From the NCBI RefSeq assembly GCF_003790525.1, contig NZ_CP033635.1: a DNA stretch of 64,000 nucleotides. The stretch is one strand, 5' to 3'. A model generated the notes under the pieces. It was not told the origin of the DNA. It saw only the letters and a program-made list of their open reading frames with translations, and did no database searches. This document shows, piece after piece, positions 4,352 through 6,211 of this stretch; within the stretch, counting starts at the first letter, position 1, and each line of letters opens with the position of its first letter. The DNA is from Escherichia coli (GTDB lineage: Bacteria; Pseudomonadota; Gammaproteobacteria; Enterobacterales; Enterobacteriaceae). The position numbers were made by a program, and so were the translations under genes.

Positions 4352-6076
4352 TCAGACCTCCTGAGCCTGCAGCGGGTTAGCGAAATCAAAATAGATCACC
4401 GAAGGGTCAACGATGGTGTTCTCGTTATGATCGTTCAGATAACAGAAAAAGTTACCTTTTACGTTCCAGTACGGACTTTCCAGAACATAGTTGAGACAGG
4501 TTTTATGAGTCACCTGGTCACGCACTTCAGCCAGCAATGTTCGTACACGAGCCATCAGATTCGCTTCGCTGTCCAGCCCGGCAGCACCCAGCGCAGCAGT
4601 TACGGCAAAAGTGGAGTTAACCAGCAGGTAATAAGGGAAATAGCGCAGCAACTGCTCACGGGTGAAAATATTTTCCGCCTGCGCCTCGTCAATGGTATCG
4701 AGCCACTCTGTCGCGTGAGGCATAAACGCGCTGCCCTGGCAGTCACGGTAAATAAATCCGACCGGCAGATCCCCAAGCATCTGCACAAGAATATTTTGCT
4801 GATGCGCCAGCAGCACCAGGCCGTAATCCGCTTCAGCCGTAAACAGAGGCTTCAGCACCTGCTGACAGTAAGCATCGACCCATGCGTGGGCGGCCTGTTG
4901 CACAGTGATACCGAGGCGATCGCTCAGGCGTTTTACCGCCGAAACCAGCAGCGAATCACCGCCATCCGGTGCGGCCTGAGTCAGGGAAACCAGAACGTTG
5001 GTCTGGCTTTGCGGCTGCTCCAGCAGCAGGTTTTCACGCAGGGAAAACAAACTTTCCTGCATGATGTTGCCGTTAAGATCGCGCAGCCCGGCCCAGCCGT
5101 CCTCCTGCATTACCCGGAAAGTAGGGAAGCGGGCCTGTAGCATCTGCCAGCCGTCGGTTTGCGCCAGACGTGCCAGGCGCATTCCTCGCTCCACCTCTTT
5201 CACAGACAGAGTACGGACGGAGTTGGTCAGCCGAACGCTCAGGGAGAACTTGATCATATCGCGGCTGGTAGCACAGTAGAGGGAGCGGGAAGAGGTGGTC
5301 GGCAGCCACGACGTGCCGGCCTCGCCTAAGTCTCTGATAAGTCCTTTAGCAAAAAGTGCCTGGCACCACACCTGCTGCAAAAGATATTCTCCCTGCCACG
5401 GGTGCAGCGGGAACAGCCATTGATTGTCACTTAATTCGTTGAGTAACTGGGGCGCATTTTCTGCGGCAAATCGCGTCAACCGCTGTTGAAGGTTAAGATG
5501 CAGACTTTCACCAGCGATTTGCGTTTTATCCACCGAAAACCACCGCAGCGGGAAGTGAGGTGCCATGTCAGGCAGGTATCGTTCAGCTTCCTGGCGGTTA
5601 AACGGTTCATGAGACTTAGGTGCAGGGTGGAAAGCGTGTCCTGTCAGCAGTGCCTGCTCAGCCTCGCCAAAATTCAACGCTTTCTCACGCAGGATGGCCC
5701 AGTCATGGCGGGCATCAATTGTCTGTTGCGTATGGGCGTAGCTTTCCAGCACGCGTTGGTGGAAAGTTTCGCAGAGGGGAACTGGCAGAAAAAGTTGATG
5801 CCGGAGCTTGTCAATAATAAGCCGGGAGAGAGTGGTAAAATCGACAGGATAACTGCCTGATGCCGTGACCAGATGAGCAGGAAATGCAAAGCGGTGATGC
5901 TGGGTTGGGGAGAAATAAGCCACTCTGAAATGGAGCGACTTCTGTTCGTCCAGCGGGATAATCAATTCGTCTGGCGGGTATTCCGCCAGTTGCCAGTCTT
6001 TGGTTTCACGAATCAAGGCATTCAGGAAGCACTGCGCAGCCACATCTGTGGCGGATTTTTCAGAGGGCAGGATCAT
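4352..6076 (-). CDS. iucA: aerobactin synthase IucA (IucA/IucC family)
   Basis: Track ORF is 4352-6139, but its first 21 codons run through the Fur box/promoter; the internal ATG at 6074-6076 (MILPSEKSATDVAAQCFLNALIRETKDW...) is preceded on the minus strand by AGGAG with a 10-nt spacer, so I place the start there. Confidence 0.85.
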   Translation of the reverse strand: MILPSEKSATDVAAQCFLNALIRETKDWQLAEYPPDELIIPLDEQKSLHFRVAYFSPTQHHRFAFPAHLVTASGSYPVDFTTLSRLIIDKLRHQLFLPVPLCETFHQRVLESYAHTQQTIDARHDWAILREKALNFGEAEQALLTGHAFHPAPKSHEPFNRQEAERYLPDMAPHFPLRWFSVDKTQIAGESLHLNLQQRLTRFAAENAPQLLNELSDNQWLFPLHPWQGEYLLQQVWCQALFAKGLIRDLGEAGTSWLPTTSSRSLYCATSRDMIKFSLSVRLTNSVRTLSVKEVERGMRLARLAQTDGWQMLQARFPTFRVMQEDGWAGLRDLNGNIMQESLFSLRENLLLEQPQSQTNVLVSLTQAAPDGGDSLLVSAVKRLSDRLGITVQQAAHAWVDAYCQQVLKPLFTAEADYGLVLLAHQQNILVQMLGDLPVGFIYRDCQGSAFMPHATEWLDTIDEAQAENIFTREQLLRYFPYYLLVNSTFAVTAALGAAGLDSEANLMARVRTLLAEVRDQVTHKTCLNYVLESPYWNVKGNFFCYLNDHNENTIVDPSVIYFDFANPLQAQEV

Positions 6077-6118
6077 AATCAAACAGCTCCTACACAGTAA
6101 AATAATAACAATTATGTC

Positions 6119-6137
6119 AATAATGATTATCATTATC
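6119..6137. promoter_or_regulatory. Fur box (iron-responsive operator) in the iucA / shiF divergent promoter region
   Basis: aataatgattatcattatc matches the 19-bp Fur consensus GATAATGATAATCATTATC at 17/19 positions; located just upstream of iucA as expected for the Fur-repressed aerobactin promoter. Confidence 0.65.
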
Positions 6138-6211
6138 AATGAGAAATGTTATTGTCAGAAAAATTAATTTTACAAATAAACACAATTAATACATGGTGTT
6201 GAAACATTACA

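What the first reader, a model, noticed from the sequence alone, without database searches (positions are those of the whole stretch)
6060..6145. Fur box overlaps the N-terminus of the longest iucA ORF; start codon should be the internal ATG
The 19-bp Fur box (17/19 to consensus) lies inside the first 21 codons of the 595-aa track ORF. The internal ATG at 6074-6076 has AGGAG with a 10-nt spacer upstream and leaves the operator in the promoter, giving a 574-aa IucA.
Basis: seen in the sequence. Interest (0 to 1): 0.25.

Follow-up and report, generated by a model that had tools for sequence, protein, structure and literature searches.

The report
iucA start codon and Fur-repressed promoter
The first 21 codons of the longest iucA reading frame are the iron-regulated promoter of the aerobactin operon, not protein; the gene starts at the internal ATG, as public annotation and the crystal structure already have it, so this is ordinary.

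Summary

**What is there (minus strand):**
- The mechanical ORF 6139..4352 is 595 aa and opens with TTG.
- A Fur box, GATAATGATAATCATTATT, lies at 6137-6119. It matches the consensus 18/19 on the gene strand and 17/19 on the + strand.
- AGGAG lies at 6091-6087, followed by a 10-nt spacer and ATG at 6076-6074. This gives a 574-aa protein.

**Why the extension is not coding:**
- The TTG "start" is the first three bases of the best -35 hexamer (TTGATA, 17 nt, TGnCATAAT).
- The two upstream starts have no Shine-Dalgarno pairing.
- GC content is 0.24 in the extension and 0.23 across the whole intergenic region, against 0.54 in the CDS.
- Across nine enterobacterial lineages the extension shows no third-position bias (variable columns 11/13/11; synonymous/non-synonymous 65/319). 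The real CDS does (8/5/19; 209/140).
- Serratia, Brenneria and one further lineage break the frame.

**Existing support for the internal ATG:**
- RefSeq annotates 574 aa starting exactly at 6076.
- PDB 5JM7 IucA aligns from that Met.
- Distant orthologues start there.

The frame stays open because the stop triplets sit almost entirely in one other phase, which is what the 6-bp GATAAT periodicity of the Fur box would produce. A start at TTG 6082 (two codons longer) is not excluded. Interest is low.

The parts
4352..6076 (-). iucA coding sequence, 574 aa plus stop (aerobactin synthase, type A NIS synthetase)
   Evidence: RefSeq CDS in E. coli SCU-115 (100% identical over the compared 601-nt promoter/5' stretch) maps exactly to window 6076. 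The 5JM7 chain aligns to query residues 22-594. The 574-aa cluster P0001 is 100% identical and has 2579 members.
6074..6076 (-). True ATG start codon of iucA
   Evidence: Anti-SD duplex of the upstream 20 nt is -6.5 kcal/mol.
6087..6091 (-). Shine-Dalgarno AGGAG, 10 nt before the ATG
   Evidence: Read directly; duplex energy. A purine-rich GGA/GAG core is kept at the same offset in all nine aligned lineages (sequences).
6077..6139 (-). Spurious 21-codon N-terminal extension of the longest ORF; in reality the P1 promoter, Fur operator and 5' UTR
   Evidence: GC 0.24, against 0.23 for the whole intergenic region and 0.54 for the CDS; GRAVY 2.89. Variable columns by codon position 11/13/11 and synonymous/non-synonymous 65/319. 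The frame is broken in Serratia, Brenneria and the P0084 locus.
6119..6137 (-). Primary Fur box GATAATGATAATCATTATT (18/19 to consensus)
   Evidence: Conserved at -61..-43 from the ATG in E. coli, Klebsiella, Pantoea, Pectobacterium, Dryocola and Entomohabitans. The literature places the iucA Fur sites over the -35 and -10 of P1.
6134..6139 (-). -35 hexamer TTGATA of the iucA promoter; its first three bases are the TTG 'start codon' of the 595-aa ORF
   Evidence: Best sigma-70-like site in the region, 10/12 with a TG-extended -10.
6111..6116 (-). -10 hexamer CATAAT (17-nt spacer, TGn extended -10). The inferred transcription start is about 6105-6103.
   Evidence: The transcription start position is inferred from the usual 6-8 nt distance and was not measured here.
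6080..6082 (-). Conserved in-frame TTG two codons upstream of the ATG; a minor alternative start (576 aa)
   Evidence: Shares the AGGAG with a 4-nt spacer. Absent in Serratia and Brenneria.
6212..7405 (+). Divergent MFS transporter gene (shiF-like), sharing the 135-bp control region
   Evidence: ORF. RefSeq calls it 'MFS transporter'. The divergent MFS gene is conserved in all eight distant loci. shiF is reported as a direct Fur target in CFT073.

Best explanation
Window 6077-6139 (minus strand) is not coding. It is the Fur-repressed sigma-70 promoter and short 5' UTR of the aerobactin operon iucABCD-iutA. RNA polymerase recognises TTGATA (6139-6134) and TGnCATAAT (6119-6111) and starts transcription near 6104 (inferred). 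Fe2+-Fur binds the 19-bp box at 6137-6119, which overlaps the -35 hexamer and spacer, and occludes the promoter in iron-replete cells. The ribosome binds AGGAG (6091-6087) and initiates at ATG 6076, giving the 574-aa IucA. The longest-ORF rule over-extends the gene for two reasons. In GATAAT hexamer arrays the stop triplets (TAA, TGA) fall in a single phase, and another phase reads ATA-ATG, so an ATG or TTG followed by open frame arises for free. That phase happens to be in frame with iucA.
For: - **Annotation:** RefSeq/PGAP CDS starts at the position equivalent to 6076 in four lineages, each 1725 nt.
- **Structure:** the PDB 5JM7/5JM8 IucA chain (576 aa, Met at residue 3) aligns to query residues 22-594 and has nothing matching the extension.
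- **Orthologues:** proteins at 63-80% identity begin about 10 aa before DVAAQCFLN.
- **Promoter:** the best promoter-like site puts the -35 on the TTG itself, so the TTG at 6139 and the ATG at 6133 lie upstream of the inferred transcription start.
- **Ribosome binding:** the anti-SD duplex is +0.7 and +0.6 kcal/mol for the two upstream starts and -6.5 for ATG 6076.
- **Composition:** GC is 0.24 in the extension, 0.23 across the whole intergenic region and 0.54 in the CDS; the extension has GRAVY 2.89 against -0.19 for the mature protein.
- **Substitutions:** no third-position excess in the extension (11/13/11; synonymous/non-synonymous 65/319), against 8/5/19 and 209/140 in CDS +31..+93.
- **Frame breaks:** Serratia has TGA three codons upstream; the P0084 locus has spacing one nt shorter; Brenneria puts the box in another frame.
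- **Stop distribution:** stops pile up in one frame, with 4-6 in frame 1, 0 in frame 0 and 0-2 in frame 2.
- **Literature:** both iucA Fur-binding sites lie within P1 over the -35 and -10 (PMC3788343). The Fur box lies 64 bp upstream of the iucA ATG in Y. pseudotuberculosis, where EMSA was done (PMC8319957).
Against: - The frame upstream of the ATG is stop-free in all nine lineages that keep the spacing. This occurs in only 0.8% of column shuffles. I attribute it to hexamer periodicity, which that null destroys.
- Some public records still carry 595- or 593-aa forms, including an NCBI-named Pectobacterium IucA.
- I could not read the primary transcription-start mapping or any N-terminal sequencing. 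The start near 6104 is inferred.
- A minor upstream promoter (P2, recalled from memory) could in principle transcribe the upstream codons.
Confidence: 0.93

Rival explanations
1. Translation starts at the conserved TTG 6082-6080, two codons upstream of the ATG, giving a 576-aa IucA (fMet-Ile-Met-Ile-Leu...). It would use the same AGGAG with a 4-nt spacer.
For: The TTG is in frame and conserved in all nine closely spaced lineages within a conserved TGTTTGA block. It shares the -6.5 kcal/mol SD duplex. The 10-nt spacer to the ATG is at the long end of the usual range (general knowledge).
Against: TTG is a much weaker initiator than ATG, and a 4-nt spacer is at the short end (general knowledge). 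Serratia and Brenneria have no equivalent codon, and Serratia has an in-frame TGA just upstream. RefSeq and the crystallised construct use the ATG.
Confidence: 0.05
2. The long ORF is real. A 595-aa (TTG 6139) or 593-aa (ATG 6133) IucA with a hydrophobic N-terminal segment is made, perhaps from transcripts of an upstream promoter.
For: The frame is open in nine lineages. Long forms are deposited in databases.
Against: - There is no SD.
- The codons lie in or upstream of the -35 hexamer.
- The extension shows non-coding composition and substitution pattern, with about half of its residues changed between E. coli and Klebsiella while the protein is about 88-90% identical.
- Hydrophobic character is not conserved: the Pantoea and Pectobacterium versions are Arg-rich.
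- The frame is broken in three lineages.
- The chain solved as 5JM7/5JM8, which aligns from this Met, contains nothing corresponding to the extension, and the literature reports mechanistic enzymology on IucA from this system. I could not read the construct details.
Confidence: 0.02

Closest known systems
Aerobactin promoter/operator of plasmid pColV-K30 (iucA P1, the founding Fur 'iron box'; de Lorenzo et al. 1987, cited via PMC2189734 and PMC3788343)
   Same: Same locus and architecture. The ColV-type plasmid sequence (pJCM20135) is identical to the window across the aligned control region except for one base. The Fur box overlaps the -35, and there is a divergent MFS gene.
   Different: The window carries GATAATGAtAATC where ColV-type plasmids and most chromosomal copies carry GATAATGAgAATC. 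That makes it 18/19 rather than 17/19 to the consensus. This T variant is found in 50 of 5426 complete E. coli genomes, 49 places being chromosomal. Its effect on Fur affinity was not tested.
K. pneumoniae IucA, PDB 5JM7/5JM8 (type A NIS synthetase)
   Same: Full-length alignment from the internal Met to the C-terminus, score 1195 bits. A 574-aa native length is inferred from the 576-aa chain with Met at residue 3. Same operon context.
   Different: About 88-90% protein identity. The Klebsiella promoter has a weaker Fur box (16/19) and SD (GAGAT).
RefSeq WP_174143704.1 / cluster P0001 'aerobactin synthase IucA'
   Same: P0001 is a 100% identical 574-aa protein. The WP_174143704.1 CDS starts at window 6076.
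   Different: None at the protein level for P0001. The window's '595-aa ORF' is only the mechanical longest ORF.

Membership tests
E. coli-type Fur box (19-bp iron box operator) | Close match to GATAATGATAATCATTATC (three GATAAT-type hexamers in F-F-x-R arrangement) | tested here: met
   18/19 at 6137-6119(-); it is the only site with up to 3 mismatches in 64 kb, with 0.03 expected. Hexamers GATAAT, GATAAT and ATTATT were found.
E. coli-type Fur box (19-bp iron box operator) | Overlaps the core promoter of an iron-acquisition gene | tested here: met
   The box overlaps the -35 TTGATA and the spacer of the best promoter-like site. The downstream operon is iucABCD-iutA.
E. coli-type Fur box (19-bp iron box operator) | Positional conservation in orthologous promoters | tested here: met
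   A Fur-like site of 15-17/19 at -61..-43 in six further genera (-58..-40 and -57..-39 relative to the called ATG in the P0086 and P0084 loci), and weaker or shifted sites in Serratia and Brenneria.
E. coli-type Fur box (19-bp iron box operator) | Fe2+-dependent Fur binding and repression | not testable with these tools
   Footprinting is reported for the ColV-K30 sequence, which differs by one base (cited). Fur ChIP and derepression of iucABCD are reported in CFT073.
Aerobactin synthase IucA (NIS synthetase type A) | IucA_IucC (PF04183) plus FhuF-like (PF06276) domains, and end-to-end similarity to characterised IucA | tested here: met
   The 5JM7 alignment covers query 22-594. All close homologues carry PF04183 and PF06276.
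Aerobactin synthase IucA (NIS synthetase type A) | Operon context iucA-iucB-iucC-iucD-iutA | tested here: met
   Window ORFs 3404-4351, 1662-3404 and 388-1665 on the minus strand are collinear with annotated iucB, iucC, iucD and iutA.
Aerobactin synthase IucA (NIS synthetase type A) | N-terminus coincides with that of orthologues (574-581 aa) | tested here: met
   Orthologues from Pantoea, Dryocola, Serratia, Brenneria and Entomohabitans start 9-11 aa before DVAAQCFLN.
Sigma-70 promoter (iucA P1) | -35/-10 hexamers with 16-18 nt spacing | tested here: met
   TTGATA-17-CATAAT, 10/12, with a TG extension. Five sites were found in the region against 0.9 expected.
Sigma-70 promoter (iucA P1) | Mapped transcription start | not testable with these tools
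   The primary mapping papers (Bindereif & Neilands 1985; de Lorenzo 1987) are not held. The start is inferred at about 6104.

The most novel reading that the evidence does not exclude
The upstream frame is stop-free in all nine enterobacterial lineages that keep the 91-nt Fur-box-to-DVAA spacing. This could reflect selection for a rare N-terminally extended IucA isoform, translated from the ATG inside the Fur box on transcripts of an upstream minor promoter, rather than being a by-product of hexamer periodicity.
Probability: 0.02. Interest if true: 0.35.

Novelty: already known. Interest (0 to 1): 0.05.

Why it matters
For biology it matters little. The aerobactin promoter is the textbook Fur operator, and the 574-aa start is already the RefSeq call and the form that was crystallised.

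The practical value is for annotation. Fur boxes read ATA-ATG in one stop-free phase, so they can manufacture a plausible start codon and an open frame upstream of iron-regulated genes. Longest-ORF callers then over-extend those genes. 595- and 593-aa IucA entries still circulate in public databases; one cluster has 827 members, and one is an NCBI-named Pectobacterium protein. Their fake hydrophobic N-terminus could mislead localisation or vaccine-target predictions.

Tried and rejected
- **Primary literature:** I tried to read the transcription-start, footprinting and structure papers (PMC212138; doi 10.1128/jb.162.3.1039-1046.1985; PMC103753; PMC4928626; PMC5961048; PMC7325057). None is held. 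The transcription start therefore rests on the consensus scan and a review statement.
- **NCBIfam:** the scan of the 595-aa ORF found no IucA-specific model, only distant SbnF, SbnC and FslA hits below cut-off. It could not define the N-terminus.
- **Rfam:** a scan of 5800-6500 at E up to 1 found nothing, so there is no known leader RNA.
- **Column-shuffle test:** the test for the open frame gave p = 0.008. I rejected it as evidence for coding because the shuffle destroys the 6-bp periodicity that confines stops to one phase. Frame 2 is also nearly stop-free, and the substitution pattern is non-coding.
- **Membrane anchor or signal peptide:** I rejected this reading of the hydrophobic extension. 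The hydrophobicity comes from AT-rich Ile codons and is not conserved in Pantoea, Pectobacterium or Dryocola.

Full report
**Observation**

The gene lies on the minus strand. The mechanical ORF list gives 4352..6139(-), 595 aa, starting with TTG. Its translation opens LIMIIIIDIIVIILLCRSCLI and then MILPSEKSATDVAAQCFLN.... Reading the minus strand shows four features:
- ...CATTGATAATGATAATCATTATTGACATAATTG..., so the TTG is at 6139-6137.
- A 19-mer, GATAATGATAATCATTATT, at 6137-6119.
- AGGAG at 6091-6087.
- ATG at 6076-6074, with ten bases (6086-6077) between it and the AGGAG.

A mismatch search with the Fur consensus finds this single site in the 64-kb window. It has 1 mismatch on the gene strand and 2 on the + strand. 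Dinucleotide shuffles give 0.03 sites, and none of 100 shuffles reaches the observed count. Everything else is as stated, and 595 - 21 = 574.

**Identity of the locus**

The 601-nt stretch around the site is 100% identical to E. coli chromosomes such as SCU-115. It is 99.5% identical to ColV/IncF-type plasmids, 91-93% to a second chromosomal lineage, and about 80% to K. pneumoniae virulence plasmids. In every case it is annotated 'iucA: aerobactin synthase IucA | MFS transporter'. The first 49 kb of the window align collinearly with the 50-kb stretch of the SCU-115 chromosome that I fetched (99.97% over the first 12.9 kb). This places an aerobactin island next to the ynj/ydj genes. The rest of the window was not compared.

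**Where the protein starts**

Four independent lines agree on ATG 6076.

1. *Annotation.* RefSeq/PGAP annotates iucA as 1725 nt (574 aa). In SCU-115 the CDS start maps exactly to window 6076. The same length is annotated in pJCM20135, S65EC and K. pneumoniae pK2044.
2. *Structure.* The solved K. pneumoniae IucA chain (5JM7/5JM8) is 576 residues with Met at residue 3. It aligns to query residues 22-594, and nothing matches residues 1-21.
3. *Protein databases.* The 100%-identical 574-aa cluster has 2579 members and is named aerobactin synthase IucA. Orthologues at 63-80% identity (Pantoea, Dryocola, Entomohabitans, Serratia, Brenneria) are 573-581 aa and begin 9-11 residues before the invariant DVAAQCFLN. 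595-aa and 593-aa versions also exist in some deposits. These include an 827-member cluster and an NCBI-named Pectobacterium parmentieri protein. Their extra residues are simply the translated Fur box (LIMRIIID..., MRNVIGRIRII...).
4. *Ribosome binding.* The 20 nt upstream of TTG 6139 and of ATG 6133 have no pairing to the 16S 3' end (+0.7 and +0.6 kcal/mol). The AGGAG upstream of ATG 6076 gives -6.5 kcal/mol. A GGA/GAG core is retained at the same offset in all nine aligned lineages.

**What the 63 nt really are**

- *Promoter.* The best sigma-70-like site in the region is TTGATA (6139-6134), 17 nt, CATAAT (6116-6111), with a TG extension, scoring 10/12. The TTG 'start codon' is therefore the first half of the -35 hexamer. 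Both upstream start candidates lie upstream of the inferred transcription start, which I place near 6104 from the usual distance; it was not measured here.
[quoted passage not shown] The ColV-K30 footprint is about 100 bp long (M10930 291-393, PMC2189734). In Y. pseudotuberculosis the EMSA-verified Fur box sits 64 bp upstream of the iucA ATG (PMC8319957). That is essentially the same geometry as -61 here.
- *Composition.* GC is 0.24 in the extension and 0.23 across the whole intergenic region, but 0.54 in the CDS. The 'peptide' has GRAVY 2.89, against -0.19 for the protein.

**Comparative test**

I fetched eight more loci through their proteins. All have the divergent MFS gene.
- In E. coli (three lineages), Klebsiella, Pantoea, Pectobacterium, Dryocola, Entomohabitans and one further genome, the Fur box sits 91 nt before the DVAA codons, with no indels.
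- Serratia has an in-frame TGA three codons upstream of its ATG.
- Brenneria places the box in another frame.
- The P0084 locus has spacing one nt shorter, which shifts the frame.

Across the nine ungapped lineages, variable columns in the extension are spread evenly over codon positions (11/13/11), and differing codons are mostly non-synonymous (65 synonymous against 319). CDS +31..+93 gives 8/5/19 and 209/140. Conservation in the extension comes in nucleotide blocks: TTGATAATGAGAA, TTATCG, CATTATC, GGA and TGTTTGA. That is the pattern of regulatory DNA.

**A wrinkle, and its explanation**

The upstream frame is stop-free in all nine of those lineages. This occurs in only 0.8% of column shuffles. 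The same call shows why this is not evidence of coding. The stops are concentrated in one phase: frame 1 has 4-6, frame 0 has none, and frame 2 has 0-2. In GATAAT hexamer arrays, TAA and TGA fall in a single phase, and a second phase reads ATA-ATG, which supplies a start codon followed by open frame. The shuffle null destroys this 6-bp periodicity. Together with the non-coding substitution pattern, I regard the open frame as a by-product of operator structure. The link to hexamer periodicity is my inference. It explains mechanistically why longest-ORF logic fails here.

**Residual uncertainty**

A conserved in-frame TTG at 6082-6080 shares the AGGAG with a 4-nt spacer. It would add two residues. 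ATG is favoured by codon strength, by the Serratia and Brenneria arrangements, and by existing annotation. Only N-terminal protein data can exclude the TTG. I could not access the primary S1-mapping, footprinting or structure papers.

**Comparison with what is known, and verdict**

This is the classical aerobactin promoter/operator, the founding Fur box, in front of a standard IucA. The one difference from the ColV-K30-type sequence is a G-to-T change inside the box (GATAATGAtAATC). It raises the consensus match from 17 to 18 of 19 and occurs in 50 of 5426 complete E. coli genomes, almost all on chromosomes. Novelty: already known. Interest: low.

Noticed in passing
window 6129 (within Fur box 6119-6137): The window's Fur box has T where ColV-type plasmids and most chromosomal copies have G (GATAATGAtAATC against GATAATGAgAATC). 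This makes it 18/19 to the consensus. The variant is present in only 50 of 5426 complete E. coli genomes, with 49 places chromosomal. Whether it tightens Fur repression is unknown.
   Followed up: partly
window 388-1665 (-), iucD: The iucD ORF is 425 aa. RefSeq flags the corresponding 1334-nt gene as a 'frameshifted' pseudogene both in SCU-115 and in the ColV-type plasmid pJCM20135. From memory, the classical pColV-K30 IucD is about 425 aa and functional. The pseudogene flag may therefore be an artefact of comparison with 445-aa homologues.
   Followed up: partly
L007 1501-3288 (Pectobacterium parmentieri GCA_003121785.1); proteins P0002-P0007, P0018-P0027, P0030, P0038: Public records still carry 595- or 593-aa IucA forms whose first 19-21 residues are the translated Fur box and promoter. 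One Logan cluster has 827 members.
   Followed up: yes
window 6077-6211 and 6212-7405 (+): The divergent MFS (shiF-like) gene shares the 135-bp control region. A + strand promoter-like site (ATAACA-17-TATCAT, 6105-6133) overlaps the same Fur box, so one operator may repress both directions. shiF is reported as a direct Fur target in CFT073. The MFS-iucA divergent pair is conserved from E. coli to Serratia and Brenneria.
   Followed up: partly
window ~12218-13189: Staggered ~100-bp self-similar matches (86-94%) and an unaligned gap at 12873-13189 relative to SCU-115. They fall in the region annotated there as a YadA-like family protein, which suggests tandem-repeat copy-number variation in an adhesin gene.
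   Followed up: no
window 6077-6090 and orthologous loci: The block TGTTTGA immediately upstream of the iucA ATG, between the SD and the start, is conserved from E. coli to Pantoea and Pectobacterium, although it lies in a 5' UTR. The reason is unknown. It may be the downstream end of the extended Fur operator or a translational element.
   Followed up: no
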